Under the pieces are notes generated by a model. That model ran no database searches. It was not told the origin of the DNA and was given only the letters and a program-made list of their open reading frames with translations. Source: Lingula anatina (taxonomy: Eukaryota; Animalia; Brachiopoda). From it: a stretch of 64,000 nt of DNA. Both the position numbers and the translations under genes were made by a program. Positions 6,585 to 52,600 of the stretch are shown in pieces; position 1 is the stretch's first letter; the number at the start of each line of letters is the position of its first letter. The stretch covers positions 16,930,848-16,994,847 of the forward strand of contig CM120643.1 of NCBI GenBank assembly GCA_051362555.1, written 5' to 3'.

Positions 6585-13638
<7,054 letters not shown>

Positions 13639-26526: not shown

Positions 26527-29500
26527 ATTCATCGGTAAATATGCAAAAAAAAAACATAATAAAATTAAAACATAAATAAGGATTAGTTCCACTACTACCT
26601 CAAATCTCCAAAGCAATTTAAAAAACAAAAATAAAAGTGACACCTTTCTACTAGTTTAAATTGTCAGCAAAGTAATTAACTAACCAAGTGAACAATTTCC
26701 TCACCTGTAGTCCTGACTGTGTCCAAGTGTAGGCTCCAGCTTGTTCATGAGTCCCAATATGGCCGTCCCCTCATTCTGCAGGCTGATCAACCTTGCGTCT
26801 TCAAATGCCTTCCGCACATACTGTTCGTGTCTTTCGATGACCTTCTTTGTATCGACAGATGTCTGCGGCATCCCTGTTATAGAGGTCATCTCACGCATGA
26901 TGGCCAGAAGAAACTTGGCTGCACTGTGACAGTTGGACAAAAATGGCTCCAGTTGCTGGAAGGTAAAAGTAGCAGACATGCATGTTAATATTGGGAGACA
27001 GTGAAAATAATTATATCAAATTGGAGAAAAAGATACCTATACATGGTACAAAAGACAAGTTGGTAAAAAAATGCATGTTCTCTACCCTCCGGGTAGCAAC
27101 TTGGGCCGTACAGTGACTGCGTACCATACATATTAATCATGTGCCTATTTGCAAAATTTTCAAATTTCTCCCTGAAGCAAAAGAATTTACACAAAAATAT
27201 CACTTAAATTAATAGTTTAAATTCCAAACCATTTTCAGGGTGACAAGGGCCTCTCATTTTGAAAAGAAAAGTCAATTGGGTTCATCGGTACAGATAAATT
27301 TTCTCCGGAGGCATGCATTGCACTGCCTACCACTTCCCTCTAACACCATGTCCAGTGACTGCATATCAATCATATATACCCATGTGCAAATTATTTAACC
27401 TAGTTCCTCCCTGCAGCGGAACTGTTAACACAAAAATCACCAAAATTAATAGTTTAAATTCCACACCATTTTCTGGGCAATAAATATATCTTACATCCAA
27501 AAGAAAAGTCAACTGAGTTCATCGGTACACAAAGATAACATTTTCTCGGAGGGCGTGGATGACACTGACCCCCGCCCCCTCTTAACCCACAGAGTTATCA
27601 CCACTTGGTCCTAGTTGACCGGTAATTAGTCATCTCTTGACCCTCAGGTAGCTCAGGATGACCATTATTTCTTTCAAAAACTTCAAACAAAGGAATGATG
27701 TCAGGATGACCACTACTTCTTCCAAAAACTTCAAACAAAGGAATGATGAAGTTTTTTCCCTAAACACTCGTCCAGGTTCTAATTCGAAATTACACTGTTA
27801 AACATAGGGATGAAATTATATATTTTGTTTTTTTCCTAACAGCACAAGTCTATTAATGAAACAAAATCATTATCTACAGCATTTCTTTCACAAAATTCAA
27901 AGAAGAGATGGGACATTCTGTGGTATTTGTGTCCTGGACATAAAATTTAAAGCAAATTTAAACTAACATGTACTTTATTAAAAAATACATGGTTCCCAGT
28001 CAGGCTAACATATGAATATGTAATAAATATGCCTTCAATCTATTTTGTTCTTCTATCCATTTCCATAATATCATAAATGCTTCTGATGTAAATCAACCTA
28101 AAAATATGTTTTTGAAGTACATCTTTTAAGGAAATGCACATTTCTTGTTTAACTTGTGGACTAGTTGTCATAAACTTAGTAGGCATGAGTGCTATCAGGA
28201 TATGCACTATTAAGCTTGCAATATCACCTAAATCTACATCCTTTGAATAGAATACTAACCAACCACTTGTTTGTTCAAAAAGCAAAATTTGAAAAAGCAA
28301 AATTTACCTCAAAATTACAATAATTTCTTCACCACAACAGCTCAAATCAGAGGAACTAACACTCTGTAATTCACCAGTCTTCAATCCAACATTAGACAAG
28401 AGGGAAGCAGTTATTGCAATCTTATCATTCCTTGTCTGAAAACTCGGTCTTTTCCCCCTATGAGCTCACCGGCATCCTGTCTATCCCATTTACTGTCATA
28501 GATTGACTCTTCTCCCCCATCTCTCACGGAATCAACGGACCGAATGATGATAAATTACGATATGGACGCAAACGCCATAAACCTGTGTTTTAACAGTACA
28601 GGTTTGCAGAGATGGTCACCAGCGTTCATCAATCACCTCTCCAATCAAAATGGGGATGTGACGTCAAAGTCACAGACCCTTACATAACCCTTCCTTTCTA
28701 CTGTGATGTACAGCCCTGGTTACTAAGTGAAAATTTAGAATGTCCTTACTGAGCTAGATCATTAGAAATATTAAGGTTTTACAAGTGATCATAACTTATG
28801 GGGACAAAAAACATTATATAAATTGATATCCTTTTTATAATCCTTTTTTACATCATAGTATACTACAGATCTTCACTTCAAATCACTGTTCAAATCTGAC
28901 GCCTCTCTGAATACAGAACTTCAACAATCAGGCACTAACATCAGTGCAAGTCTCTCCTACCACAACTTCCACATATGACTGCACCACAAACTTTAGGAGT
29001 CTCAGGGAATTAAAACGTACTCATAAAAAAATGACCCGTTCCAGGAGCGAAACTGTGTGAACAGAACATCTTCAATGTTCCATACCCAAATGACCCCATC
29101 AAGCCCCTTATTGTGGACATAACAGTAATGGCAGGCTTGGGTGACACTATCAATTGTTCACTAATGACAGTACCGTCCTATGGATTATTGTCCGTCACAG
29201 GACAATCAATGACAGTTGTTGGCTAATGGTGATGCAGTTCCACCCTTAATATGCACATGTATGTGACACCTAATTGTCCCTTCCTATGCCTGTTGTAAGT
29301 CAGATTATGTAAGTTCCTGTGCTATTTGAAAGCACTTAGTTTTTGAACCCAGTCACCCTTTTCCAATCTTTTCTGCTCCCCTGTGTTCAGGTCCATGCTT
29401 GCTATAAATATTGTCTTATTTTAACAACAAGTACAAGCTTTATGAACCCCTGGATCCCAAAAAACAATGAAAAAACCTGACAGAGTTACGCTAAATAAAA

Positions 29501-32500: not shown

Positions 32501-35500
32501 TTACATAGACAACACTAAGCGAGGTTTTCTAACGTGTTGGACCAATCCAACTAGTAAGGTGGGTTTATCTGGATGCTCCCTAATAGAATATTTTTCTAAG
32601 ATGTGTGATTATTCACAATACAAAGTACCAACACAAGCAAAACAAAAAACTTACTTCCAAAATGTGAAAGGCCTCCAGTAAGTTGTTCAGCACCAGTTCA
32701 CTGGCACCTTTAGCCTGGACCAGAAACGTGGATCCTTTCTTTCTGATCTCCTCCCTGAAAACACAAAATAATTGATTTATCAGCTGATTTCTACAAATAA
32801 CATTTCATTGAGATACAACATTGATACAAAATATAATGTAATGTTTAACTTTTTCTTTGTAATTTTTTTTTTTACCTTTTTGGATGAGATGAGATGCGAT
32901 ATTTGACTCTTAATTTTCTGAACATCTGCTTGTACCAAAGATTATACATGATTTTGACTTTCTTGGGGGGGGGGGGGGGGGAATATATAGTGTAGAAGTT
33001 GGTATGTCATTGTTAACTTAGTTGTTTCAAAGTTTGTACGTTTTCATGTCTTCAAACAAACCCAAAAACAACTTTGCTGCCAAAAATGATGACACTTAGG
33101 CGTGTCATATCTGTTTGACAATGAGCTAATTGATCAAAACGAGCTGTCACCCTGAAAGGTGGAGGGTCACATCTTTTGTCAGATCTTGCTCTGCCATCGT
33201 TATTCACACAGGGTGCTAAACTTGGCAACTGTATTGTACTTATGTCCTCTCTCCTCTCCTTTTTACTTTGTTCTGTGTGTGTGTGTGTGTGTGTGTGTCT
33301 GTGTGTCTGGCACTGCTGAAGAAAAGGGAACAATTCAAATGCCACTTTTGTCTACCTTCAGAAAATTATCACAAACAATTTATTTATCAATTGACTTATA
33401 ACAAAAATTAAATCAAATGTTTTGTACATGAATTTCTTTTAAACATTTAGAACTAGTTATGTGAGATTCATTTTCTCAGCAAGCACAGCATATACTACAG
33501 CAGCTTGTAGGACCTACTGAAACTCACTGTTCTGTAATTGTTTTGTTCTTACCTCGGAACAACATAGTAGTACATGAAGAGCCGCGCCAGTTCTGAACAC
33601 CTGAGGTCAGCACTGTTCCACTGTGGTAAATGTGTGTGTACTACCACCACGCTGCCGCCACGACTGTCTCTGGATCCTGGAGAGAAAAAAGAAAAATGTA
33701 TAATAATAAGCAAAAGACTATAAACTTTGATTACTGGATTACATTTCAAATAAAACCCAGTTATCTTTATCTGCCTTTGGTATTCTTCTGCTATATCTCA
33801 AATGTAAAGAAATAAATTAATGGGTTAACACAACAGGGATGGACTGTGCATGAAAAAAAGAGGAGAGAGATTTATTCCACTGTAATAAGGGTTTCACAGT
33901 ATCACATTGCCCTTCATCTCAACAGAACTTAGGGTTTCTAAAATAATCCTAATTACTTTTAATTATTCCTTTCTCCAAGATTTCTGATAAAGTATACATA
34001 TTTTTTCGTTCTAAAATAACAGAGATGAATGAACAGTATTTTCTTTTTTGCATAGTTTATCAGATACAGCAACGGATCATGTACCCCTTTTACTGCGTTC
34101 AGTTTGCACTCCATTTCTTCACATAAAAACCCTTTTTGGCAATACAAAGAAATCCGTGAGAATTAAATCAGAAATTTGTTTTGACAGAATCACATACTGT
34201 GTAGAGCTTTATGCCTCTGCCATCTGCAAAGCACATTTGGCAAACAAGGTTCGAGGTTTTATCCCCCCTCTCCCCCTGCTCTCCTTAATGCTTTCTTTGA
34301 CTACAGATTCAAGCTGATACAATAGAGGAACTGTTTTTGATGTCTTTCTCCCATTTTTCTTTATTATATATACTAATTTGCTCTTAGAACAGTTACTATA
34401 TTTGTCAGTTTCTTATTATTGCCCTCTAAGCACTTTAACTTGAGATTTCACTGGTTCAATTTGTGCAGCTCTTACCAATTGTTATTTCTCCTCCAAGCAG
34501 GAAACTTTCAAATGTAGCCTTATTGTTTCATGCAAGTCATGTTTTTTCCTACTTAGGATCTCTATCTCAAAAACATAACTTCAAAAGCTCATTTCAAACT
34601 AATTTGTAACCAGAGAGTCAACGTTAAGTCATGCAGCGGCATTCCTGTGTCAATCAGTGACAAGTTTTGAATTAATTCACTTCTGATTTTCCAGCAGCAA
34701 GAACATGACTCACTAAATATTCTGTATCTTCCATTTTGATGTATTTCTCCTGCAATTCCAGAATCCAGCATGCCTTTTTTGGTATAAACCTTCCTTTTTT
34801 TTTTCGACTCACCATACATTAATGCATAAAATGTACAACATAAAGTATTTCCTAATCACTTTTCTTACCTGTGTCTAGTCGTCTTTTGCAAGCAAAGTGT
34901 AGGCACTAAAGCTACGGTTCTTAGTAAGCAACAACCACCAGCAACAGACATAAATTCCAATTGAAGTTTTACATCCTTTCAAAACTTGTATACTCAATTT
35001 GCTGAACTCCTATAAGTATGCATATTAATATACCAAAATTGTAGCCAGTTTCTAAAGATTCATTAACCGAGATCTGATAATATTGTGAGTTCACAGCCAA
35101 AGATCAGACAGATCCAATCACACCTTTTTGTTCTCTAACCGCAAACTAGAACCATAACATAAGATACAGCTGCCCTTAATATCTGCGTTATCTAAACACA
35201 ATATCTGACTATTACTTTGCATTGTTGTCATTGTTGGGGCTTTCATGATGTTATTGTTGCTTGGGTACAAATGAATGGCTATTACTTTACACATGCAATG
35301 ACATACCATTGCCTTCTATGGTCAGTGCTTTCAGATAATGCTGTATAACTGTTAATCTTTTTGATCATTGCACCCAAACAACCCACACATGTGGAAGTTT
35401 CATTTTCTGGTCTGATGCACCAGACTTTTGAGGGGAATTTGGTGATTTTTGTGATTTCTTAGCTAAATGTCTCTGAAATAAATTCATCGTGAAATTTCTA

Positions 35501-38500
35501 ATTCCAATTGTTTCCCCTAATCATTTGAAATGTATGTAAAAGAACTTCCAATTTGTGCTGAGGAATCCATTTAAAGGATTGGTGTTTTCTTTTTCTTGTC
35601 AATATGCTTCTTAAACCATTTAATAATTGATGAAACAATGGTCAATTTGTCTTCAGACATACAAATATATATAAATGGATTTGACTTTGCAGTTCCAAAA
35701 CCTAAATATTTACTCATTCATTTGATAAAAATAGAAACAACATCTCATTCTTTCAAAGAAATTAATGTGGACATTTTAACTTCATGGTTCTTTCTCAAAT
35801 CATTTATAATTAATTACAGAGTAGCAACATCATGGCTTTTTATCAAGACTGGTTACAACCTCAAAAGAAAATACTTTGACAATTAATTTTTCAACTCTAC
35901 TTCTTTTTGTTTTGTTTATATATTTTGCAACTTTTCAAATTCAGCAAATTTCAGAAAAAGGCTTCTTAAGCATTGTTTTTAAGCTTCGTCAATTTAAGTT
36001 ACTCAAAACAGAACTTCGCAATGTCACAACCATTTCCAGGTTCATTTTTTTTAGAAACTTGAGATGTCTGTTTAGAATTTATCACAGTTTCAGTAGGCAT
36101 ACATTTCTTTTTATCAAAAATACATCAAGTTTTTGCCTAACATAAAAAACAGTGAACATTCAACAAAAAATGCAAAACTTCTAAATCTTACTTCAAAATA
36201 TCTCAGGGGTTTTCAACCATACGACGGGATAATAAATTCTTTGGAAGAATTTCTGTTCAAAACCAGTCTCCAGTATGTCACAAACACACCTACCCTGTTC
36301 TGCCTACTCAATGTCCATATTCAGACATATTTTGAATCTTTATACATCCTGCAAGACCTTATTCTTCGAATTGAGTCTATAAAGCAAAAGTGTACTCCAC
36401 CCTTGTAACTACAGAGAAACAACCACTATTTAGGAAAAATACTTTTCTCATGCAATGTGCCTAAGCTTCTTCAATTCAATTCTATTTTTTACACTCTTCA
36501 TGTAAGAAAAAAAACAAGACTTACCAATCACCTTCACCTTGAATACCATCATGTACTGATCACAGCCAGTAACTGAACAGAAGACAGTCCTGCTGATATC
36601 AGAGACAGACACTACTACAACTTCTGCTTATTTTCAGTCTCAACTCCCCCCATAACCAGCCACTATCTGGGAGGATCAATTCCTCAATCAAGGTGGAAAT
36701 ATAGGTGTCCAACAAGTGCACAAACAAACAGATTGGTAAGAAAAATAGTAGTATCACCAGTAACAGCTGTCCAGCTTTTACCTTCTAACGCCTAAGCTTA
36801 TCTCTCACTTACACTTGTGAAAACATAATCAAGAAGTTCTGTTTGATGAACTCATCAGCCCAGCCCACTCATACATACTCAGGGCTTAATTTGAAAGGTA
36901 GCGATGTGATCATGAATATCTTAATGAAATATTGCACAGGATAAAAATTCCATAAGGTGATGTGTAAGCATGAATTAAATCTATTGAAAAAAAAATGACT
37001 ACATCCTTTAACCTACATGCTTTACCTCACCATTATCTCATCATAGCATATAGGAGGGGCAAAATGTGCTGATTCAGGGCCTATGATTTCTGCAATAGGG
37101 CCTTCCATGTGTATGACAAACAGCACTTAAGAATCCAGACAAGGACAGCAGGTAAATTAGAAGAGGAAGTGATAGTTTAGAGGTACACAGACAATAAACC
37201 CCATTGTGCTATAGCAGAGTTGTTGACATAAGCTGTGTACTTAACATTAAAATCCAATTACAACTGACCCTATCCAGTAATTAGCCAAGATGACACCCAA
37301 CCTCGCTCGCTCTCCACGGTACGACTAGTGAAAAAATTCCTGTAATGCTTTGTACTGTTACTTTTTGTATAAATTTGAATGTAATTAGGCCAGTTCATTA
37401 TTGGACATATTGTAAGTGCATGCAGTTAATTTGTTTCCGTGCGTTTTAATTGTTTTTAAAATGTACCCATGTACATAGTGCTGATAGTGTCTTGGCAAGG
37501 GTTATATGGTGCTTTGAGTTTATTAAGAGAAGTCATCGCCATTCAGGAGAGACATTATCAAATAAAGACACATCTCGTGCAATTTATAGCAGATGATCTG
37601 CAATTCACATCAATTTTGATAAATGCCATGAATATCTAAATAAATTCACGTGTTAACAATTTTATGCTTGATTGAAACTGTTCACAGTTACAAAAAAAAT
37701 ATATCCAATGTTTGCTTTGTTTTGCTGGCACATTTGTCTTATGGTTTTGGGTGTCTACAAGTCAAAGGTTTTCCAGAAACTTTCAGTCATCACTGATGCA
37801 AACCTTACAGGTCATAAAATTTTTATTTTGATGACTTTTTTTCTCTAGAAAGAGCACATGCTATTTCAAAGCAAAAACAATAATGGAGTTTTAATCTAAT
37901 TTCCAAGCTGTAACTCATGGGTCACAATGTGTCAAGATCTTGAGATTGAACAGATTTCAAAAATGGAGTGAACTACACCAAGCTCTTCTCCAACAACCTG
38001 TTAGTAAAAAAAAACAAAAGCCGTTTTTATAAACAAGTTGTTTTTCATTACAAAATGGGTGGTCTTTGGGATATAAATATCCACGTCACATTCAATTATT
38101 CCAATATGATATCAAAACCAGAAAAAACAATGGTTCCAATTTTAATTCTCCACCCACAGGAACGGTAAGTCTATCTCCATGGTTGAAACATAACAAAGAA
38201 AGATCTGTTTATCGCAGCTTGGGGATTTCATTGCTATGAAACAAAATTGATTGACTACTATTCCTAGAATATCCATTGTGTCTCTGTTTCACTGGGATAA
38301 CAAAAATAACCGCAAGACAAGTATCACAAGTGGTTTTCATCTTGGAAACAAAGAAATGGGGCATACACATACTCCTGTTGAGAACCAAAAACAAAATGGG
38401 TCCATTCTCACCCAAATCCTGTATCAAACTGTGAATACAACAACAGACCCGGAAGACAAACTCAACTAATGCTACAAGGTAAAGAATACTGAATACTTTC

Positions 38501-41500
38501 GTCAAACCATGCAGAAAGAATTTTTTGCAAGGGACCTTTCATAAAACATGAAGTCAAAGCTGCAGAATGTGTTGCACAATTTGAAAGTATCACCTTGTCC
38601 CCTGCTCTCTCTTTCTCTATCTGTGTGTGAGTGTGTGTGTGTATGCATGTGCATGTGTTCTAACTGTCATCCTTTCAACTTTTTCCTTTTCCCAAAACAA
38701 ATCCCATCACATTTGTACCTAACAGAGCAATCTCAGTTGAAGTTAAACCAAACAGAAGACTCCACTTGGTTTCATCTTTCAATCACCTTCTTTCCTGGAG
38801 AACAAAATCATTTTAAAGATCCCAAAAGGAGGAAATGTCACCAACAACACCTGTCATCACTGAAAAAGTCCATTTTACATAAGAAACCATATAAAATAAT
38901 TTCCACTCACCTTGCTGTGATAATAAAACCCTAGTCTGATAAAAAGGCATCATTGTCCCTGGCAGAGTAAAAACCATCTTCAATCAATGTAGAACTTGAA
39001 TAACACTCTCAAGTCTGCTTCCATGGCAACAAGTAAATATTTCACTTTCTCTTTGTTAATAGTTTTTAACTATCTGCACACTATACAAGAAAATACAGCT
39101 TATTAAAAAAAAAACTGATCCTACTATCTATAAATCTATGCAAAACCTCCACAGGTGTCCTGAGAGATACCGACTCCTAGACTTCATCAGTACTCAATGA
39201 AAATGATCACAGAATCAGTGCATTACCTGCTACTACTACTACTACATAGAAGGTATATAAGAAAGAAGGCACTGTACTGAACAGTGGATGCAATGACAGT
39301 TACTGTAATGCACTCCCTTTTCTAAGGTCGCATTCAGAAAGACTCTTACAAGCATGGACTTAGTCCTAACTTTAGGAAGGCTTTAGAGGTTTGATTGCAA
39401 TCACTCATTATGTCATACCATCTGCAATGCCTAAAATTACAGTGATTGCTTTTCAGAGGGTTGAACACATGTAAATCTTGGAGGTAAATTAAAAACTTTT
39501 TTTATGAAAACTGTCTTGAATGCGGCCACTGTCCCCTGTGGAATGACAGTGATACCTGCTCTCATGTCATTTGACCATGACTTTTACGTAGGAATGTAAT
39601 TTAGTGTACCGAATATGAACTTGATAACACTGACAAAACTGTTTCATCATAAACTTACTCATCATAAACTTACTCATCATTTTTAAAAATATTTTAACAT
39701 CCAATTCTTTTATTCTATTTTTTCCTCTTAGTTCCTCCCCCCCCTCCCCCATATAAAATGGTTTAGAGAGCTGATAAATGTGACAACATATAACTAGAGG
39801 ATCAGAGAGGCGATACCGCCTCCGAATATTGTACCACCAGCTGGAGCAAGCGCATTCGTATAGACCCCCACATACACAAAATAAGGGACACAGCCACCAG
39901 TTTTGTGCTTGACAAGCTGTAAAAATGCAATCAACAAGAATTTTTAAACTATTGCAAAAAACATATATGGTACAATCAAATTTAAGTTCTTCGTAAGGTA
40001 GGTCAAGGGTCAATTTCAAGGTCACAGTAAATTGCCAGTATATGACTTCATATTCAAGTTCAAGAATAACTATGAACCTATCTCTGTCAAGTTTGAAGTT
40101 AAAAGAGAAAAAAAGTTCAGTTCATGATAAAAAGTAGGTCAAAGGTCAATTTCAAGGTCACACTTATATTGCCAGTATAGGACTTCCTATTCAAGTTTAA
40201 TAATAACTATGGACCTATCTCTGTCAGTTTTGGAGATAAAACGGAAGCAAAATTTGCAAAATTCAGTTCATGGTGAAAAGTAGGTCAAAGGTCAATTTCA
40301 AGGTCACATTTAGATTGCCAGTATATGACTTTCTATTCAAGTTCAATAGTAACGATGGACCTATCTCTGCCAGTTTTGGAGATAAAAGGAAAGCAAAATT
40401 TGCAAAGTTCAGTTCATGGTGAAAAGTAGGTCAAAGGTCAATATTAAGGTCACATTTATATTGCCAGTATATGACTTCCTATTCAAGTTCAATAGTAACT
40501 ATGGACCTATCTCTGCTATTTTGGAGATATAAGGGACTAAATGTTATTATTTTGGAGTTACCATAATGTGCCTTAAATTTCGTACAGAAAAAATTAATTA
40601 AAATAAAGAAAATGTCATTTTGGTCAAAATTCTTGAAATAGGAGGTGCTCTGAAGTTTCAGAAGTTCAAGTTTGATGAAATAATGTCATTTTTGAACACA
40701 AGTTGTCTGCTTTGCCAAGCCTTATGTTTTATTTTTCCAGAGTTCAAAATTTATTATCCATTACCGTACTGCACATTTTGCTTTTACCACCAATATGTGC
40801 TTTTTGATACAGCGTAACTCGAAAACCGTATGGAATAAAAAAAAAACCCGAGACCACCTCCAGTATTGGGCTTTACATGCAAAGTTCAGTTCATGGTGAA
40901 AAGTAGGTCAAAGGTCAATTTTAAGGTCACATTTAATTGCCAGTATATGACTTCCTATTCAAGTTCAGTAGTAACTATGGACCTATCTCTGCCAGTTTTG
41001 GAGATAAAAGGGAAGCAAAATTTGCAAAGTTCAGTTCATGGTGAAAAGTAGGTCAAAGGTCAATTTTAAGGTCACATTTAGATTGCCAGTATATGACTTC
41101 CTATTCAAGTTCAATAGTAACTATGGACCTATCTCTGCCAGTTTTGGAGATATAAGGGACTAAATGTTATAATTTTGGAGTTACCATATTGTGCCTTAAA
41201 TTTCGTACAGAAAAAATTAATTAAAATAAAGAAAATGTCTTTTTGGTCAAAATTCTTGAAATAGGAGGTGCTCTGAAGTTTCAGAAGTTCAAGTTTGATG
41301 AAATAATGTCATTTTTGAACACAAGTTGTCTGCTTTGCCAAGCCTTATGTTTTATTTTTCCAGAGTTCAAAATTTATTATCCATTACCGTACTGCACATT
41401 TTGCTTTTACCACCAATATGTACTTTTTGATACAGCGTAACTCGAAAACCGTATGGAATACAAAAAAACCCGAGACCACCTCCAGTATTGGGCTTTACAT

Positions 41501-44500
41501 GCAAAGTTCAGTTCATGGTGAAAAGTAGGTCAAAGGTCAATTTTAAGGTCACATTTAATTGCCAGTATATGACTTCCTATTCAAGTTCAGTAGTAACTAT
41601 GGACCTATCTCTGCCAGTTTTGGAGATAAAAGGGAAGCAAAATTTGCAAAGTTCAGTTCATGGTGAAAAGTAGGTCAAAGGTCAATTTTAAGGTCACATT
41701 TAGATTGCCAGTATATGACTTCCTATTCAAGTTCAATAGTAACTATGGACCTATCTCTGCCAGTTTTGGAGATAAAACGGAAGCAAATTTTGCAAAGTTC
41801 AGTTTATGGTGAAAAGTAGGTCAAAGGTCAATTTTAAGGTCACATTTAGATTGCCAGTATATGACTTCCTATTCAAGTTCAATAGTAACTACAGACCTAT
41901 CTCAGCCAGTTTTGGAGATAAAAGGAAAGCAAAATTTGCAAAGTTAAGTTCATGGTGAAAAGTAGGTCAAAGGTCAATTTTAAGGTCACATTTAGATTGC
42001 CAGTATATGACTTCCTATTCAAGTTCAATAGTAACTATGGACCTATCAGTTCATGGTGAAAAGTAGGTCAAAGGTCAATTTTAAGGTCACATTTATATTG
42101 CCAGTATATGACTTCCTATTCAAGTTCAATAGTAACTATGGACCTATCTCTGCCAGTTTTGGAGATAAAAGGGAAGCAAAATTTGCAAAGTTCAGTTCAT
42201 GGTGAAAAGTAAGTCAAAGGTCAATTTTAAGGTCACATTTAGATTGCCAGTATATGACTTCCTATTCAAGTTCAATAGTAACTATGGACCTATCTCTGCC
42301 AGTTTTGGAGATAAAAGGGAAGCAAAATTTGCAAAGTTCAGTTAATGGTGAAAAGTAGGTCAAAGGTCAATTTTAAGATCACATTTATATTGCCAGTATA
42401 TGACTTCCTATTCAAGTTCAATAGTAACTATGGACCTATCTCTGCCAGTTTTGGAGATAAAAGGGAAGCAAAATTTGCAAAGTTCAGTTCATGGTGAAAA
42501 GTAGGTCAAAGGTCAATTTTAAGGTCACATTTAGATTGCCAGTATATGACTTCCTATTCAATTTCAATAGTAACTATAGACCTATCTCTGCCAGTTTTGG
42601 AGATAAAAGGGAAGCAAAATTTGCAAAGTTCAGTTCATGGTGAAAAGTAGGTCAAAGGTCAATTTTAAGGTCACATTTATATTGCCAGTATATGACTTCC
42701 TATTCAAGTTCAATAGTAACTATGAACCTATCTCTGCCAGTTTTGGAGATATAAGGGACTAAATGTTATTATTTTGGAGTTACCATAATGTGCCTTAAAT
42801 TTCGTACAGAAAAAATTAATTAAAATAAAGAAAATGTCATTTTGGTCAAAATTCTTGAAATAGGAGGTGCTCTGAAGTTTCAGAAGTTCAAGTTTGATGA
42901 AATAATGTCATTTTTGAACACATTGTCTGCTTTGCCAAGCCTTATGTTTTATTTTTCCAGAGTTCAAAATTTATTATCCATTACCGTACTGCACATTTTG
43001 CTTTTACCACCAATATGTACTTTTTGATACAGCGTAACTCGAAAACCGTATGGAATACAAAAAAACCAAGACCACCTCCAGTATTAGGCTTTACATGCAA
43101 AGTTCAGTTCATGGTGAAAAGTAGGTCAAAGGTCAATTTTAAGGTCACATTTAGATTGCCAGTATATGACTTCCTATTCAAGTTCAATAGTAACTATGGA
43201 CCTATCTCTGCCAGTTTTGGAGATAAAAGGGAAGCAAAATTTGCAAAGTTCAGTTCATGGTGAAAAGTAGGTCAAAGGTCAATTTAAAGGTCACATTTAG
43301 ATTGCCAGTATATGACTTCCTATTCAAGTTCAATAGTAACTATGGACCTATCTCTGCCAGTTTTGGAGATATAAGGGACTAAATGTTATAATTTTGGAGT
43401 TACCATAATGTGCCTTAAATTTCGTACAGAAAAAATTAATTAAAATAAAGAAAATGTCATTTTGGTCAAAATTCTTGAAATAGGAGGTGCTCTGAAGTTT
43501 CAGAAGTTCAAGTTTGATGAAATAATGTCATTTTTGAACACATTGTCTGCTTTGCCAAGCCTTATGTTTTATTTTTCCAGAGTTCAAAATTTATTATCCA
43601 TTACCGTACTGCACATTTTGCTTTTACCACCAATATGTACTTTTTGATACAGCGTAACTCGAAAACCGTATGGAATACAAAAAAACTCGAGACCACCTCC
43701 AGTATTGGGCTTTACATGCAAAGTTCAGTTCATGGTGAAAAGTAGGTCAAAGGTCAATTTTAAGGTCACATTTAATTGCCAGTATATGACTTCCTATTCA
43801 AGTTCAGTAGTAACTATGGACCTATCTCTGCCAGTTTTGGAGATAAAAGGGAAGCAAAATTTGCAAAGTTCAGTTCATGGTGAAAAGTAGGTCAAAGGTC
43901 AATTTTAAGGTCACATTTAGATTGCCAGTATATGACTTCCTATTCAAGTTCAATAGTAACTATGGACCTATCTCTGCCAGTTTTGGAGATAAAACGGAAG
44001 CAAATTTTGCAAAGTTCAGTTTATGGTGAAAAGTAGGTCAAAGGTCAATTTTAAGGTCACATTTAGATTGCCAGTATATGACTTCCTATTCAAGTTCAAT
44101 AGTAACTACGGACCTATCTCAGCCAGTTTTGGAGATAAAAGGAAAGCAAAATTTGCAAAGTTCAGTTTATGGTGAAAAGTAGGTCAAAGGTCAATTTTAA
44201 GGTCACATATAGATTGCCAGTATATGACTTCCTATTCAAGTTCAATAGTAACTATGGGCCTATCTCTGCCAGTTTTGGAGATAAAAGGGAAGAAAAATTT
44301 GCAAAGTTCAGTTCATGGTGAAAAGTAGGTCAAAGGTCAATTTTAAGGTCACATATAGATTGCCAGTATATGACTTCCTATCCAACTTCAATAGTAACTA
44401 TAGACCTATCTCTGCCAGTTTTGGAGATATAAGGGACTAAATGCTATAATTTTGGAGTTACCATAATGTGCCTTAAATTTCGTACAGAAAAAATTAATTA

Positions 44501-46605
44501 AAATAAAGAAAATGTCATTTTGGTCAAAATTCTTGAAATAGGAGGTGCTCTGAAGTTTCAGAAGTTCAAATTTGATGAAATTATGTCATTTTTGAACACA
44601 AGTTGTCTGCTTTGCCAAGCCTAATGTTTTATTTTTCCAGAGTTCAAAATTTATTATCCATTACCGTACTGCACATTTTGCTTTTACCACCAATATGTAC
44701 TTTTTGATACAGCGTAACTCGAAAACCGTATGGAATACAAAAAAACCGAGACCACCTCCAGTGTTGGGCTTTACATGCTCTACAAAATGCAAAAAAGAAT
44801 GGGTCTCTAGCATTAACGGTTCCCGAATTAGAGACAGTTTTCAGTTTCGGTATCTTATGGCCGCTACTCCCGTGAAAATGCACCGATTGACCCTAAATTC
44901 ATGGAGATGAAAGATGACCTGAAGGGTAACACTTTCCAATAATATTATTGGTTAAGTCTGTGTGGTGTCTGAATAACAGGGCAAAAAAATTTTTTTTCGT
45001 AAAAAATTTCATTTTTTTGAAAATTTTGGCCCATTTGACCTTGAAGTAAAGGTCAAAGGTCAAATCCAAGGGTATATTTGAAATCTACACATATGACTTT
45101 TGGAAAGCCGTCTATAGAAATTTTTCCCATAACTCCTTCCGTAGGGTAGATAATTAGCATTTAATTTTGCCATTTTTAGACAAGGGTGCATTGCAATGAG
45201 TGCCACACCCAGACCCCAATACCGACAAAGCCCAAATTTTACGTGGAACGAGTTGAGATTATAGGTGACCTAAATCCATGAGATGGGTATGGGGGGCCTT
45301 ACCGTCTAGGAGGAGAAGCGGTAACGGTAGCCGTCCGGCGGAGCCGGCGGAACCGGCGGAGCCGGCGGAGCCGGCGGAACGATCCGGACGAGACCGAAAC
45401 CATGTGTACCGCCAGCGCTAACGCTGGTGGTACAATGATCTATTTTTACGATATTTATTTTGAATATTTACTAATATTAAAGCAGGTGTTCTTTGCATAA
45501 GTGTTCAAAGAATAAAAATCATAAAAAGCCTTGTTTTAGGAACAGCTGTAAAATGAACCACTGTCACATCACCCAATACTACTAGTGCTAAAAAGGGGAG
45601 ATGACAATGATCAGTTTATCATTTAATCCATCTTTCAAATGTGAGCTAGATTTGTTCACTCCCTCTGTACTAGCTGAGATAGCTCACCTGCCGCTTGAAA
45701 AAAAAAAAAGCAAGCCACATTCCACTAATTATAAAACACTGATAAACAAATGTAGTAATTACATTCGAGAAGGAAATACACACAGATTGTACATAACACC
45801 CTATACCTTGGAGCAGCATCACAATAGGACTTCTATTTCTACAACTTAATTCCTTTGCATGGGCCTTGGATCAAAGAGCATAACTTGATCTATCAATCTT
45901 TTCATCTCTGTCATAAACCTGGCCGTGGCTGTTCCCACTGGATTATAGCCAAGTTTAAATTAGTTATCAGACAGACGCTGCTAATTGCTGGAGCCGGCTG
46001 ATTACAGGGTGTGTAGAGAAGTGTGAACAGCTGTATTATGGGGCAGTAGGGGGTGGTAGGACTGGCAGAGCTACTTGTACAGCAGGGACACCTGTTTCAT
46101 GAAATGGCTAAAGCTGAAAAGAAGTTTTGGCAAAGACTGCTTAAAATTCAAGCCAAATTGCATTGCCCGAATTATTGAAAAGGGTGCTTCTTTAGACAAC
46201 CAGGACCGCGCTATTTTCACTAATTTACAACTGCCTGGACAATGATTTTAACAATTGTTTGTATCGATAGTCCATGTAGGTATGTCAAGTTGTCAAAAAC
46301 AGCGTTTGCCAATCTTTTATAAAAATAAGAGGGCCAGTTCAAATGCACAATGCAGTCAAACAATTTAGATGTTATAAAGAATGTGGCCCACTATATCACA
46401 ATGTGTAATAAGGAAAGAAAAAATATTCTCAACCAACCACCACCTAGTCAACCAAAGTAACTGAGCGTATACTGCAATTGTAAAATCTGATCACAGTTAT
46501 TGTATAAACAATATTGTAATTTACTATTGTAATTTTAGTTATATGATTATATAATGTATACTGTTAGGTCATAGTCATTGTAAAAAATGTACTTGAACTG
46601 CAATA

Positions 46606-46639
<34 letters not shown>

Positions 46640-49600
46640 CACTCTTACAATATCCCAAAGTCAGGTTCACAAAACCAGGTACAAATTTATTATTCTGTTT
46701 TTTTTTTTTTTAGAATGTTTTTTTTTTATTTAGAGAACAATTACAATCACAACAAGGGTGACTTCAGTGGCTGCCAAAAATTGGCCTTCAGGTCCAAGAA
46801 TATGGCAGTTATACAACTGAAATAGCCAAAAATCACTGCAAGCCAAGATTTGGTTTTAACCAGCACAAAACTGATGGATTGGACAGTGACAGTGACAGAT
46901 ATACAACAGACTGGCACATTTACTCGGCCGGAAAATAACTACTGCAAGTTAAGTGAAGTCATTACTGCAGATGTTGATTTAATTTCAATTAGATGAAATA
47001 TGAGAAGTTAAATAGAATGGAATAGACTTCTTTGGTCCCTTTTTGGTTGGGGTGTTTTAGAAAGTTCCATCAGTGTCAGCGAGTGCAACAATCTGAACAT
47101 AAAAGTTAAATGTCACATAACATATTGACTGACTTTGCACGTATTCTCTCTTCTCCAGGAGCGATGTTTTTGAAAGATCCATCAATGCATTGGTAAACGC
47201 TTTGCCTTCAATTAATGGGCTCATCTATAATTTGATGCCATATTTACACAGGACACATACAGGGATTGATTTTTCTTTTTATCTACTACTTTTCATCTTT
47301 ACCTTTCTGAGTGACCCACTGTTAGTTTAATGAGGGATATTCATGAAGTTTTGTACCACTGTTTATTCCTAATACACTGGTTCTGGGGAGTTCAGAAGTA
47401 ATGTGAGAAAACTTGTTGGAAGAACAGCCTGGGTTTTTACATTCGTTTTCTGAAAGTTCTTACTTTTCAGTTTTTCTCACAAAGTCTGCATGTTGAATTC
47501 TAGCCACCTTCCCTGGTTTTAACTTTTTTTTTGTTGATTATCAATGTTACTTTTTTGCACTTGTCTTCAATAATGGAAAGTCTGTTGAATCCTATCCACA
47601 TATTTTTTACCCACAACCTCATTGACGCAGCTTTTTACTTTCTGGTTCTTCTGTCCTCCATCCTGCTATCTTCCTCTCTCCATCCCTCTTTCTTTTAATA
47701 TTTTACAACATAATTCTAGATTCTAGCATACACTTATGGGTGCCTCTGCAGGGGCGGATTTAGGCCGTCTTCTGGGTCTTCCGGAAGACGGTCAGAATTT
47801 CAAGTCTTTTCAAGATTTTATATAGACGGGTATCTAACTTTTTCTGTCGGAAGACGGTCAAAAATGAGGATGGATCAACAAAGATAATTTGGAAGACTGT
47901 CAGAAAATATATCTGGATCCGCCCCTGCCTCTGCATGCCCCCCCCCCCCCCCCCCCCCAACCCTGTACCAGAAAAAGTTCTGCTCTGGGTACATTTAAAT
48001 TAAGGTGCATGAAGGTTTCACAGTAAAAAGGTCCACTTTTTCATAAAAAGACCCTTCCCCCTTGAAATTGCGAGCTATAAGCCCACCTAACGAGAATGAA
48101 CTTCTTCTCAGAACTCATTTCAAGTGCAATACTATAAGCCTCCACTGATAAGAAACAACGCAGTCTCTCACTCCCCTTTCATTTAGGACCTCGTACACCA
48201 TCATTACAGTCCTTTTCAAATCAAAGAAATACAGAGTGGACATTAGATCTTCATCCCCCAGGGCCATTCATCACGGTCGTTTGAGCAAAAATGACAAACG
48301 AGACAAAGAGCAGAGGCTGCTTATGGAATGATAGTTGGCAGTGATTGTACAGGCAGATAGCTTCTATAATAGTCGTAATTCTATGTTATTATAACATAGA
48401 CAGCAAGGAGGTTGTGGAGATATCATTCAATTACTATATTACCTTCTTCCTCAATATTCTTCATGGTTTGTCATGATGATGGCACCAAAAATAGCTGTAA
48501 CATTGAACCCCACTATTTTATGTTTAAATTTAGCATGATGTCTGAATATAATAATGGTTTTACTTGGAGCATTAGGTTAAATTTAACATGAACTTGAGCC
48601 TAATGCTTTTAAAAATATGGTTGTACTTCAAGGCTGACAATAACAATGATAGTTCTTTAAGTAAAATAGACAGCATACAAGATTGTAATGGTCTAAATCT
48701 TCCTTATTTTTCTTTTTAGAAAGCCTAATGTCTTAAAACAAATTACACTCAGTCACAAGATGCAGCATAGGTGAAAGTGTTAGTTAATCACTTTCCGTCT
48801 TTTCCATTTTAAATAATTTCCTTCCTTGAGCTGGCTGTGTTCAGAATAGACCTATTTTAGCAGAGATTCCAAAATGAACAAAATGAAGCAACATGAACAA
48901 CATCATAGACTACAAAGTTTGTCCTGACTTTACCAGGTACATCAAGTTAGGAGGGGGTGTGCCAGACAGTTAAGCTGATTACATTGACTACACCTTAGCA
49001 AGAATCCCTGTGGAGATAGATCGATCCTGCTAGTACTATAACCTCTATTCTCAACACAATCTTAATCTTCCTTTTTTTTTTTAGAAAGACTTTTAAGTTC
49101 AAACAAATTACACTCAGTCACAAGATGCAGCACTGGTGAAAGTGTTAGTTAATCACTTTCTTTTTTTTTTCCTTTTTAAATATATTTCTTCCTGGAGCTA
49201 TTTGCAAAGATATAAATAACATTTGACAGTATCAGTGCAAACTGTGCATAATGTTCCCTTGCATTTTTTCCCTCTAAAAGATATTTCCATGTGTCACTCA
49301 GTGAAAATACAAAGACGATATCCATATCGTGTTGGAGCCACCCCCCTCTCTCCTGGTGGTAATAGAACAGTGCTGTCTTTCTAAACAATTCTCCATTCTG
49401 AAGATCTGATGTGGATTATCTAACACACTTAAATAACAACAAATAGCTAATGCAAGTCAGGTTTCTCCAACACTCCTGTGCATGCAGTGAAAAATGCACT
49501 GCAGTAAGAAAAAAGTTACCACTCCCTTTGGATGTCACCGTTATTCAAGGATTTCCGTTAACATCTCTGAGTTTTTATTAGTAAAGATCTTATGAACGAA

Positions 49601-52600
49601 AACCAAATAAAGTTGCACCTCTTTGCATTTTCATTTTATGCAGAAAAAGTCAAATAAATGAATAAATAAATACTGCAAATAGTTGGTTGCAATCTTCTAT
49701 ATTTCATGTTTGAAATACCTAATATAGATAAAATTCAAAACATCCTGTCGCAAGATAATACCTGCATACTTCAGTAATTGCTGTTCAAATAATATATATT
49801 GATAACTGATGCCGTTCTATCCACACCCATTTTGAACAGATAACTTAAGTCAACAGTGATGGTTTATCTGTGACTCTCTATCTCTAAAATGTACTCACAT
49901 AGACATCATAATACAGGTCACTCTAACCATGTGAAAAGTTTGACAAATACTTTACACCATTTTACTTTGGGCAAAGAAAAAGAAAAAATTATCACTTGTC
50001 ATTTTATCACTTATTTTCGGTAAAATTGTACATTCCCTGAATGAAACAAGAAGTATTTTAGATAGACTCAAGATCTAATGACCTTGTATTCACTAAGCAG
50101 TTGTCACATCAGCCTATCATAAAAACAATCTAGACATGTGGTGGTTTATTTTTGTACAGAATCTTACCAGCAGTCAAAATAAAGATACAGAACAACATAA
50201 AAACATTCCCACGCTTTCATCCCTTTTTTAGTCACGGCACCAATGATATTTAATATAATGCATACATGCATGACAATATGGGTTCCCTTTAAAATTTTAA
50301 AAAAATTAAATTGCATTGAAAATTATCTTACATAACTATTCCTAAATCATTAAATACCATATAAAATGCATCTTATCTGAAAAAAAAAAAAAATAATAAA
50401 TAATCAACAGTTTCAAACAATACTGGGCTACCCTTGCTGATATCCATCAATATTTATCAGGTATAAACAATAATGAAAGACAAAATTGTTCAAAAAATTT
50501 ATCAGCGTTATTCTTATGTACACATTATTCTAACTTACCTGGAAGAGTTGCAATTCCTGAACTCAACACATCGTAGTTAACATCCAGAACCGACTGCGGT
50601 AACTCTAACCTAGGAGTTGTCACCGTGCCACCATTTTCTTCATCCTCCTCATTTGTTTCTATAATAAAATAAATAACATGCACACCATCAGACTTGGCAG
50701 TTGTCATGTTAAAATTGATCAACTAAGTTGACAGTTGTCTACAGGTATTTGTTCTTTTGCAGATTATTGGAATAGCATCCTTAAAAAGTCCAGAATATCC
50801 ATCGTTTTAGTCTGTCTTTGAAAATAAGCCTAGCTCTGATGTTACACTTTTACTGTCTGTGAAGAAACCATTTCATCTCTGTGTATGATATTATATATTG
50901 TCTGAGTTTCATTCAGTGTAAGTTCATGTTCACAGTCCTCAGTTTATCAAATTTCCTTTGCTATCTGCTAGGACAATTGGCTATTGTTCGATGTTTCAAA
51001 CGGACAATGAATTACTGGTCAAGAATGACCTCAGCAGGACACAAGTAAGGTCAGTTTCAATGGTCCACTATGTGGTATCAAAATACAGCTCCAATTTCAA
51101 TGGTATCACTCCAAAGGTTGTGCAACAGTTGTCAAATTTACAGATTCAATTTCACTTGCAATCCTAAACTGTCCACTCCAGTGATAGTGTTTATGAACTG
51201 CAGATCTAGAGTCAATGACAATATAATATCATATTTTCAGTAACATCCTTGAATAAATCACCATCTCCCTTCACTAGAAGTAAGTTTTTTTCATCTGAAC
51301 TTATAGCTTCACAAGGATTTCCCTTGGTTAACTTCCTTTCGTCCAGACAGACAGATCAAGTATTTCACCATAAATCTTACTTTCTAGACAGGAAATCCAC
51401 AACTGCTTAAAACACTCCCCTTTCTACTTCTCCCTCCTTCTCTCTCTACCACACTTATTTCATTCACGATTTTCAGCCGCCTGCCTCCACTTACTGCTGC
51501 TGATTGTCAATTGGGTCATACCATTTGATTTCCAGTAGGGAGGACAGGTTGGATGTTGGTTTGGTGGGGACGAGTCCATGTTTATAATTAAGTGCATTGC
51601 ATCTGCTGCTGAGATAAAGTTTCAGCAATGAAAAGAACTAACATTTCAACTTTCTTACTAATTCATCACTCACATAAATTAATTTTGCAAGGGCCAGAGA
51701 CCGTCATTGAACCATGGCATTTTGATTGGGGAGGAGGAGGAGGCTACCAAGTTCACAGATGTAATCATTTTTCTATTAACTACTCTTCTCTCACTTAAAA
51801 CAGATTGAAATTAATTTTGGACAAATTATTAACAATTTAGTTGAAAAAAAAAAAAACGAATTTTTTAAATTTTGCTTTGGTCAGATTCATCGACTGAAGG
51901 CCATGGATGAAAAGTTTATGTTAGTTTAAGCCCTGGAATGGACAGACTAACAAGGCAGAGATTGCATAGTAACTGACCAACACTAAGTACTGTTAAGCAC
52001 CTTCATTGATTGAAAACTATTGATGTTTTCCACAATGTTGCTTTTGCAAGGCCCTTATGTCCAAGGAAATGCACCAATGCCAATAAACTAATGTAAGATT
52101 GTAGAGGTTTATCAAAGATGGGAGCGATCCAAAAGTGATGTCCAAAAGTGCTGCTAGGTATAGAAGAAAGAACATAAACAAATATGCAATGAAACTGCCA
52201 GCATATTTGATTGACACATAATAAATTGTTATTGGGAAGCTTTGAATGCTATGTGATTTTGGACATTGTTTGTATTGTATAATGTAATCAATTTTGATAA
52301 AATAAATTTGCAATGAGTTTTTTTAATCATTAGTGTGTATTCTACCATGAGTTGCACAATGCCTTTTTTTCCAACAAGGGTAACCAACTTTTAATGAAAT
52401 AGTCCTAATCCTTTTTCAAATCACATGGATAAGCCTGCTGCATAATCAAAACAATTTGTAAAAAAGACAATGATGTTGTTTAACAACCATTCAATCATGT
52501 GTAATGAAATCCATTCTTCTTTCATGAAATATTGTTAATTCATTATGGCATTGTCCCAATTTAGATGATTAAGTCACTCCCATTTGTTATGAATCTTGAC

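What the first reader, a model, noticed from the sequence alone, without database searches (positions are those of the whole stretch)
39995..45062. Transposon-borne battery of 20 perfect composite nuclear-receptor response elements (RORE + DR1 + third half-site, with GATA motifs)
Seen: 20 of 22 monomers contain exactly AAAAGTAGGTCAAAGGTCA, nearly always followed 6 nt later by a third AGGTCA. Each full monomer also has AGTTCA half-sites and a TATCTC...GAGATA inverted GATA pair. One more DR1 with an everted TGACCT lies at about 45037-45062. Known: AGGTCA-A-AGGTCA is the DR1 consensus for RXR, PPAR:RXR, HNF4, COUP-TF and TR2/4, and AAAGTAGGTCA is the ROR/Rev-erb (HR3/E75) monomer site as in the Bmal1 promoter. 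Inference: the element is a mobile, copy-number-tunable nuclear-receptor docking cassette (enhancer, silencer or receptor sink), about 60 AGGTCA half-sites in 5 kb. If repeated genome-wide it would be a rolling-circle-distributed hormone or circadian regulatory system. This is the best candidate for a novel system here. Caveat: TGACCT-rich repeats are common in mollusc transposons and may serve the element or host silencing rather than this gene.
Basis: partly seen in the sequence, partly recalled or inferred. Interest (0 to 1): 0.85.

Follow-up and report, generated by a model that had tools for sequence, protein, structure and literature searches.

The report
Jumping repeat carrying receptor-type sites
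The array is the repeated middle of a very common non-coding rolling-circle jumping element in a lamp shell (Lingula), so the 20 perfect sites are copies of one unit; that unit likely docks a host nuclear receptor that drives the element's own RNA, but nothing here shows binding or a hormone or clock response.

Summary
The motifs are real: 20 of 22 monomers carry the 19-mer. They are one 146-bp unit amplified recently (97% alike) inside a 5.64-kb non-autonomous Helentron (HINE; 39792-45436, minus strand) with subTIRs, both hairpins, a microsatellite and TT ends. The host is the brachiopod Lingula, not a mollusc. Contig depth is about 10^4 times the flank, and an empty allele is inferred in one of three animals. 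The copy sits in PLEKHG4B, 815 bp before an annotated alternative start codon. For constraint: an older relic monomer keeps the DR1 at 13/13 against 58% elsewhere. In one RNA run, reads on the element are 44-68:1 one-stranded. No binding or hormone evidence exists. Best reading: a selfish element with likely receptor-docking sites for its own transcription. Known analogues are Helitron HSE arrays and ISX. The scan noted the same idea in another genome (e1-9264066).

The parts
39792..45436 (-). Whole non-autonomous Helentron (HINE), about 5.64 kb; ends uncertain by 1-2 nt because of the TT at each junction
   Evidence: Depth steps at about 39790 and 45436 in 3 DNA runs; loose ends at 45436 in 35-45 contigs per run and at 39791/39792 in 101+313 RNA reads
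45423..45436 (-). 5' subterminal inverted repeat, 14 bp
   Evidence: 100% complementary to 39828-39841 (I12)
45405..45416 (-). Short inverted repeat pairing with the 5' subTIR (5' hairpin)
   Evidence: DNA fold of 45395-45445: -13.3 kcal/mol, z -5.4, 0 of 200 shuffles as good
45335..45378 (-). Microsatellite, 9-bp unit x 4.9
45028..45185 (.). Relic (older) monomer in the 5' module; keeps the DR1 (45050-45062) and most of the GATA pair; TGACCT at 45036
   Evidence: DR1 13/13, GATA pair 10/12, RORE extension 1/5, third half-site 4/6, rest 77/133; homology beyond the DR1 reached by 2 of 1000 shuffles
44428..44778 (.). About 350-bp spacer, contiguous with the 5' module; four more copies at 40528-40882, 41151-41504, 42750-43100 and 43370-43721 split the monomers into blocks of 4, 2, 9, 2 and 5
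39979..44427 (.). Central array of 22 monomers of 146 bp (one truncated to 101, the first diverged); each has AGGTCA-A-AGGTCA, a third half-site 6 nt on, and TATCTC-N11-GAGATA
39828..39841 (-). 3' subterminal inverted repeat
39807..39822 (-). 3' palindrome (6-bp stem, 4-nt loop), 15 nt from the end, followed by CTAG and TT
38909..38977 (-). Alternative first coding exon of host PLEKHG4B (annotated isoforms X5/X6); start codon 815 bp beyond the element's 3' end, same strand
   Evidence: tblastn of P0043/P0044; names
33681..50536 (-). 17-kb intron of the long PLEKHG4B isoforms that holds the element
   Evidence: P0011 exons at 50659-50537 and 33680-33546

Best explanation
The array is the tandem middle of a high-copy non-autonomous Helentron (HINE) of Lingula, and its AGGTCA cluster likely docks a host nuclear receptor that drives the element's own transcription rather than a host hormone or clock circuit. 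Steps: (1, shown) one 146-bp monomer and a spacer were multiplied inside the element into a higher-order array. (2, shown for spread; inferred for mechanism) the family is dispersed in thousands of copies with sharp common ends, and is presumably moved by the RepHel of an autonomous partner that was not seen. (3, inferred) this copy is a recent, segregating insertion at a TT. (4, inferred) the DR1 core is kept by selection on the element. (5, shown in one run, polarity assumed) several copies give RNA of one strand that crosses the 3' end into different flanks. (6, untested) a constitutive NR2-type homodimer on the DR1, or a monomeric receptor on the extended half-site, supplies the activation. 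Any effect on PLEKHG4B would be a by-product of this insertion.
For: HINE anatomy matches PMC4067079 and PMC7492417 feature by feature. Depth ratio element/flank is 7,800, 14,900 and 12,100 in runs X1, X3 and X6. The X6 flank contig runs 106 letters past 39793 without entering the element, which fits exactly onto 45436-45541. The relic monomer keeps the DR1 13/13 against 58% (binomial p 0.0008). Within the array 2 of 24 RORE+DR1+third-site columns vary, and 8 of 146 circular shifts of the mask do as well. The one listed common variant in a DR1 (40007) leaves RGGTCA. The family majority at 40153 is C, giving TCAAGGTCA. RNA run X22: first-mate +:- is 68:1 on the 3' module and monomer 1 and 44:1 on monomer 2; 414 reads cross the 3' end into mixed flanks (agreement 0.43-0.48). 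Human RXR, COUP-TF2 and HNF4 homodimers bind DR1 (PMC3384313 passages). Precedent: HSF-1 sites in Helitron1_CE drive its Rep-Helicase mRNA (PMC6927752 passages).
Against: No binding, chromatin or reporter data. The genome-wide variant check is not significant: 0 of 9 listed polymorphic sites in 24 motif columns, P=0.19, with only 40 of 80 rows shown. The AGGTCA hexamers alone give 26 of 146 shifts. The motif set was picked by a reader looking for invariant text, which biases the within-array test. Gene conversion could keep the relic's DR1 identical. Only 1 of the 6 listed RNA runs of the species was laid, about 6% of it, with no control gene for strand polarity. A few strongly expressed host transcripts could give the bias. 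No RNA read covers this locus's flank (39690-39769). Most HINE families do without the cluster: in oyster TCAAGGTCA is nearly confined to 1 of 13 clusters, and the exact DR1 occurs once in 3.35 million characters. The tool warns that contig depth is no copy number.
Confidence: 0.44

Rival explanations
1. The half-site cluster and the TATCTC/GAGATA pair serve transposition or array growth: RepHel or replication-factor docking, or preferred joining points. The likeness to receptor sites is incidental.
For: The GATA-like pair is as invariant as the DR1 (0 of 12 columns vary, 4 of 146 shifts; 10/12 in the relic). The monomer-to-spacer junction falls right behind it. An oyster HINE monomer of the same length also has an AGGTCA cluster, in other spacings (DR0, everted), and by eye a similar TATCT...GAGA pair.
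Against: TCAAGGTCA is nearly absent from 12 of 13 oyster HINE clusters, which are dispersed just as well. The HINE papers name the terminal structures, not the array, as the likely transposition signals. This reading does not explain one-stranded RNA.
Confidence: 0.2
2. Neutral hitch-hiker: an ancestral monomer captured or evolved a half-site cluster once, and amplification with gene conversion copied it.
For: All copies descend from one unit. The genome-wide variant test is not significant. Look-elsewhere effects weaken the shuffle p-values.
Against: DR1 13/13 in a relic that is 58% alike elsewhere; four more RGGTCA half-sites in the 5' module outside the relic's DR1.
Confidence: 0.18
3. The sites recruit repressive NR2C/NR2F receptors (TR2/4, COUP-TF) that mark copies for silencing or cluster them, as with variant repeats of ALT telomeres (recalled, no call).
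For: COUP-TF2 binds DR1; DR1 constraint.
Against: Element RNA is abundant in the one run laid: 7,955 of 9,506,110 records on 581 bp. A selfish element would be expected to lose a site that only silences it.
Confidence: 0.12
4. One reading: a host-co-opted, copy-number-tuned hormone or circadian regulatory network spread by rolling circle.
For: Genome-wide spread is real. This copy is 815 bp from an alternative start codon. Lingula has an RXR entry, and another brachiopod's RXR responds strongly to 9-cis-RA and TBT (PMC7225927 passages).
Against: The RORE extension and the AGTTCA sites are not conserved. The insertion seems to segregate. There is no evidence of gene-class enrichment, fixation or ligand response.
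Confidence: 0.06

Closest known systems
HINE / DINE-1 non-autonomous Helentrons (PMC4067079, passages)
   Same: 12-15-bp subTIRs, 5' IR, microsatellite, central tandem repeats, 3' palindrome, TT ends without a clear target duplication, no coding capacity found
   Different: Autonomous partner not seen; 9-bp microsatellite unit; long higher-order array with a duplicated spacer
Cg_HINE elements of Crassostrea gigas, above all Cg_HINE_6 / CL6 (PMC7492417, parts 1-3 of 7 and supplements)
   Same: Same modular order; 146-147-bp monomer; CL6 monomers are rich in AGGTCA/TCAAGGTCA
   Different: Other subTIR; CL6 has DR0 and everted spacings, not DR1 or RORE; oyster arrays average about 4 monomers, this one has 22; compared by eye only, so homology is untested; no comment on receptor sites in the parts read
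HSE-bearing Helitrons of Caenorhabditis (PMC6927752, passages)
   Same: Rolling-circle elements that carry dense clusters of a transcription-factor site, drive their own transposase mRNA and rewire neighbours; strain-specific insertions
   Different: There binding and induction were shown by ChIP and RNA-seq; here the factor would be a nuclear receptor and nothing is shown
ISX/ISXR helitrons of Drosophila miranda (PMC4384637, passages)
   Same: Rolling-circle element dispersing a regulatory site
   Different: ISX is domesticated, 77 copies with a demonstrated site; this family has thousands of copies and a segregating insertion
DTC84 of Donax trunculus (PMC3879986, passages)
   Same: Core repeats plus microsatellite between short inverted repeats, AA at the ends
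   Different: At most five core repeats; receptor motifs not seen in the passages read

Membership tests
HINE (non-autonomous Helentron) | Pair of 11-15-bp subTIRs, one at the 5' end, one some 38-60 bp inside the 3' end | tested here: met
   14 bp, 100%; the 5' copy is at the terminus, the 3' copy 36 nt from the end, slightly nearer than the mite range
HINE (non-autonomous Helentron) | Short IR next to the 5' subTIR | tested here: met
   45405-45416; hairpin z -5.4
HINE (non-autonomous Helentron) | 3' palindrome 8-35 bp from the end | tested here: met
   39807-39822, 15 nt from the end; z -2.5 for the 66-nt stretch
HINE (non-autonomous Helentron) | Microsatellite after the 5' module and central tandem repeats | tested here: met
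HINE (non-autonomous Helentron) | Insertion at TT / T-rich sites without target-site duplication | tested here: met
   TT at both junctions on the element strand; other copies' 5' flanks are T-rich. The inferred empty allele has one TT, so at most a 2-bp ambiguity; its letters were not seen.
HINE (non-autonomous Helentron) | Interspersed, high copy number | tested here: met
   Depth ratio about 10^4 with sharp shared ends in 3 of 3 same-species DNA runs laid
HINE (non-autonomous Helentron) | No coding capacity | tested here: met
   Only short frames of at most 120 aa lie within it; 2 were scanned, with no Pfam hit; no Rfam hit
HINE (non-autonomous Helentron) | Autonomous RepHel-endonuclease partner sharing the subTIR | not testable with these tools
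   No genome held
Functional nuclear-receptor response element (DR1) | Consensus AGGTCA-N-AGGTCA | tested here: met
Functional nuclear-receptor response element (DR1) | Selective constraint on the half-sites | tested here: inconclusive
   For. Not significant.
Functional nuclear-receptor response element (DR1) | Receptor binding and effect on transcription | not testable with these tools
   Needs EMSA, CUT&RUN or a reporter
RORE / clock element (consensus recalled) | Conserved A/T-rich 5' extension before AGGTCA | tested here: inconclusive
   Present in 20 of 22 monomers but 1/5 in the relic monomer
Domesticated TE regulatory network (ISX-like) | Insertions fixed and enriched at target genes | tested here: not met
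   For this copy only: an empty allele is inferred in X6, and flank contigs stop at the junction in X1 and X3; other copies not testable

The most novel reading that the evidence does not exclude
About ten thousand rolling-circle elements have seeded the Lingula genome with RXR-class DR1 arrays whose strength scales with monomer number. They fire transcripts out of their 3' end into neighbouring DNA, so segregating copies such as the one 815 bp before the PLEKHG4B X5/X6 start make individual animals differ in retinoid- or organotin-responsive expression. AGGTCA-loaded HINE monomers in oyster and other animals would be independent recruitments of the same receptor class.
Probability: 0.12. Interest if true: 0.78.

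Novelty: new member of a known kind. Interest (0 to 1): 0.4.

Why it matters
The element class is well described, and rolling-circle elements that spread transcription-factor sites are known (HSE Helitrons, ISX). Not found in print by searches is a nuclear-receptor reading of HINE monomers. If the sites are bound, they would explain why AGGTCA clusters turn up in HINE arrays and how such non-coding elements come to be transcribed. The apparently polymorphic copy next to an alternative first exon offers a ready allele-specific test.

Tried and rejected
No genome was held for the window, so copies could not be collected, and the autonomous partner and motif constraint over thousands of copies were not tested. 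No second copy of the element lies in the window. Coding or structured-RNA readings were rejected: no Pfam hit for 2 frames, no Rfam hit, and the monomer folds no better than shuffles (z 0.07). AGTTCA as functional half-sites was rejected: 6 of 17 columns vary, and 142 of 146 shifts are as low or lower. The spacer and 44780-44990 as further relic monomers were not supported (112 and 589 of 1000 shuffles). The sigma-70 scan has no bearing on an animal and was ignored. Run X10 (organism B) holds a 99% contig of the 5' module at depth 10.7; carry-over and a related species cannot be told apart. X1's right-flank contig begins with 4 unlaid letters, which the simple full/empty model does not explain. 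Ellison and Bachtrog 2013 was not held and is cited only through PMC4384637. The oyster CL6 monomer was not aligned to this monomer, so common ancestry is open. The whole array was never laid with reads, so a contig or read spanning this copy was not seen. Look-ups of earlier findings by sequence and by genome returned nothing.
Full report
OBSERVATION. The motifs are as described. There are 22 monomer anchors between 39998 and 44325, 20 with the exact 19-mer, and none elsewhere in the window; 65 AGGTCA lie on the + strand in 39995-45062. The third half-site follows 6 nt later in 21 of 22 monomers. TGACCT at 45036 and a DR1 at 45050-45062 are present. The monomers are 146 bp and fall into blocks of 4, 2, 9, 2 and 5, separated by copies of a roughly 350-bp spacer. 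Monomers 3-22 are 96.8% alike on average, and a 2,085-bp block is duplicated at 96.5%, so the count of 20 is one event multiplied. One monomer still beats chance: an exact DR1 arose in 4 of 20,000 dinucleotide shuffles and three AGGTCA on one strand in 6 of 20,000. The de-duplicated element has 8 AGGTCA against 0.78 expected (two of them in a relic monomer).

WHAT IT IS. Read on the minus strand, the array lies within an element running from 45436 to 39792. In order it has a 14-bp subTIR (45423-45436) with an adjacent inverted repeat that folds back on it (z -5.4), a 9-bp microsatellite, a 5' module, the array, the second subTIR (39828-39841), a 6-bp-stem hairpin (39807-39822), CTAG and TT. 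These are the features listed for HINE/DINE-1 non-autonomous Helentrons in PMC4067079 (passages) and for oyster Cg_HINEs in PMC7492417 (parts 1-3 of 7; supplement 1). Two of its short frames gave no Pfam hit, and Rfam gave none. The autonomous partner could not be sought (no genome).

HOST AND PLACE. Neighbouring exons are 96% and 98% identical to Lingula anatina TANGO6 and PLEKHG4B, so the host is a brachiopod. The element lies in the 17-kb intron between exons at 50537 and 33680 of the long PLEKHG4B isoforms, in the gene's own orientation. Annotated isoforms X5/X6 begin with an exon whose start codon is at 38977, 815 bp beyond the element's 3' end; X7 appears to begin at 36552 on a 10-residue match. 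These are database gene models; their transcription starts are unknown.

SPREAD AND AGE. Of 24 runs listed, five were laid, on two stretches that leave out most of the array. In X1, X3 and X6 the summed contig depth over the 5' module is 7,800-14,900 times the single-copy flank. The tool warns that this is no copy number, so I read it as thousands to about 10^4. Depth drops at 45436, where 35-45 contigs per run go on into unlike flanks, T-rich on the element strand, and at about 39790. At this site the left-flank contigs of X1 and X3 stop at 39793, and X3's right-flank contig starts at 45434. X6's left-flank contig runs 106 letters beyond 39793 without following the element; with the usual 30-nt overlap (k=31, recalled) these letters fit 45436-45541 exactly. 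I infer an empty allele in X6 and probably a full/empty heterozygote in X3. The letters were not shown, and X1's right contig has 4 unlaid letters that the model does not explain. The insertion is thus likely recent and segregating, with only a TT ambiguity and no longer target duplication.

ARE THE MOTIFS CONSTRAINED? Four tests. (a) Within the array, monomers 2-22: 2 of 24 RORE+DR1+third-site columns vary, matched by 8 of 146 circular shifts; the three AGGTCA alone 26 of 146; the GATA pair 0 of 12 columns, 4 of 146; AGTTCA 6 of 17 columns, 142 of 146; all claimed motifs together 18 of 146. An earlier Fisher test gave p 0.007 for all motifs without monomer 1 and 0.038 with it, but its mask missed one AGTTCA. 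The motif set was chosen by eye for invariance, which biases this test. (b) A relic monomer in the 5' module (45028-45185; homology beyond the DR1 reached by 2 of 1000 shuffles) keeps the DR1 13/13 and the GATA pair 10/12 against 77/133 elsewhere (p 0.0008), but the RORE extension only 1/5 and the third half-site 4/6. Monomer 1 is uninformative (p 0.14). (c) Genome-wide variants on monomer 2: 0 of 9 listed polymorphic sites fall in the 24 motif columns, P=0.19; only 40 of 80 rows were shown. The family majority before the third half-site gives TCAAGGTCA (T in 20-26% of DNA depth), and the common variant at 40007 keeps RGGTCA. (d) Oyster HINE arrays (supplement 2 of PMC7492417, search hits only): TCAAGGTCA or its complement occurs 2,211 times, nearly all in cluster CL6, also a 146-bp monomer; the exact DR1 occurs once and AGTAGGTCA four times. 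What recurs is therefore a cluster of half-sites, in a minority of families, not the composite RORE+DR1. The labels RORE, ERR/FTZ-F1 element and NBRE are recalled; DR1 binding by human RXR, COUP-TF2 and HNF4 is from PMC3384313 (passages).

RNA. One RNA run (X22, about 6% read, 85% likeness) was laid on 39690-40270: 7,955 of 9,506,110 records fit. First mates lie on + over - at 68:1 on the 3' module and monomer 1 and at 44:1 on monomer 2. In the usual library this means RNA in the element's own 5'-to-3' direction; polarity was not checked on a control gene. 313 and 101 reads cross the 3' end into mixed flanks (agreement 0.43 and 0.48), and 2,224 reads join monomer to monomer at the two best-supported joints. 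No read covers 39690-39769, so this locus is not shown to be a source. Passive read-through of randomly oriented copies would give about 1:1. Element-driven transcription is the simplest reading, but a handful of strongly expressed host RNAs is not excluded.

MECHANISM. Most likely (0.44), this is a selfish HINE whose monomer carries half-sites for a host nuclear receptor. The sites are kept because they get the element, or its autonomous parent, transcribed, as HSF-1 sites do for Helitron1_CE (PMC6927752, passages). Shown: anatomy, amplification, spread, one-stranded RNA in one run. Inferred: RepHel mobilisation, the segregating insertion, selection on the DR1. Untested: binding, the identity of the receptor, any ligand. 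Rivals: sites for the transposition or array-growth machinery (0.20), neutral hitch-hiking with conversion (0.18), receptor-mediated silencing (0.12), and a host-co-opted hormone or clock network (0.06). The last keeps some footing because Lingula has an RXR entry and another brachiopod's RXR answers strongly to 9-cis-RA and TBT (PMC7225927, passages), and because helitrons have been domesticated before (PMC4384637, passages). PMC7827873 (passages) cautions that vertebrate ligand labels carry over poorly to invertebrates.

NOVELTY. This is a new member of a known kind: every structural HINE feature that could be tested is met. Searches for Helentron with nuclear receptor (0 papers), Helitron with AGGTCA (11 listings, none on this by title), and searches found no description of receptor-type sites in HINE monomers or of this family; most subscription papers are not in the library. 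It is no independent support, and my oyster check limits it to a minority of families. PMC3879986 was seen as passages. Interest 0.4: an ordinary element class, with a real, partly constrained motif, an unexplained strand bias and a convenient polymorphic test site.

Noticed in passing
window 39792-40270 (run X22): Element RNA is 44-68:1 one-stranded and crosses the 3' end into mixed flanks. RNA depth is about 5,200 on the monomer against about 500 on the 3' module (some 10 monomers per end), against roughly 2-4 in DNA contig depth; long arrays may be transcribed more, or contig depth misleads.
   Followed up: partly
window 38909-38977 and 36523-36552 (minus): Alternative first coding exons of PLEKHG4B (isoforms X5/X6; X7 on a 10-residue match) inside the 17-kb intron; the first lies 815 bp from the element.
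   Followed up: partly
window 46298-46500: A second high-copy repeat begins here (depth about 10^3-10^4 against 60-100); not characterised.
   Followed up: no
window 44790-45328 (run X10, organism B): A 770-nt contig 99% like the 5' module at depth 10.7 in a run of another organism: carry-over, a sister species or transfer.
   Followed up: no
window 27108-27567, 27653-27748, 48692-49199, 57131-58972: Local duplications: 226 bp at 73%, a 48-bp tandem pair, 143 bp at 83%, and 44 bp at 95%.
   Followed up: no
window 6585-13635 (+) and 15511-55714 (-): TANGO6 and PLEKHG4B lie tail to tail, their last coding exons about 1.9 kb apart.
   Followed up: yes
monomer, e.g. 43102-43247: Monomer length 146 bp equals the nucleosome core length (recalled) and the oyster CL6 monomer length; a 9-bp block with an imperfect half-site (TGACTT) is also unchanged in the relic monomer.
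   Followed up: no
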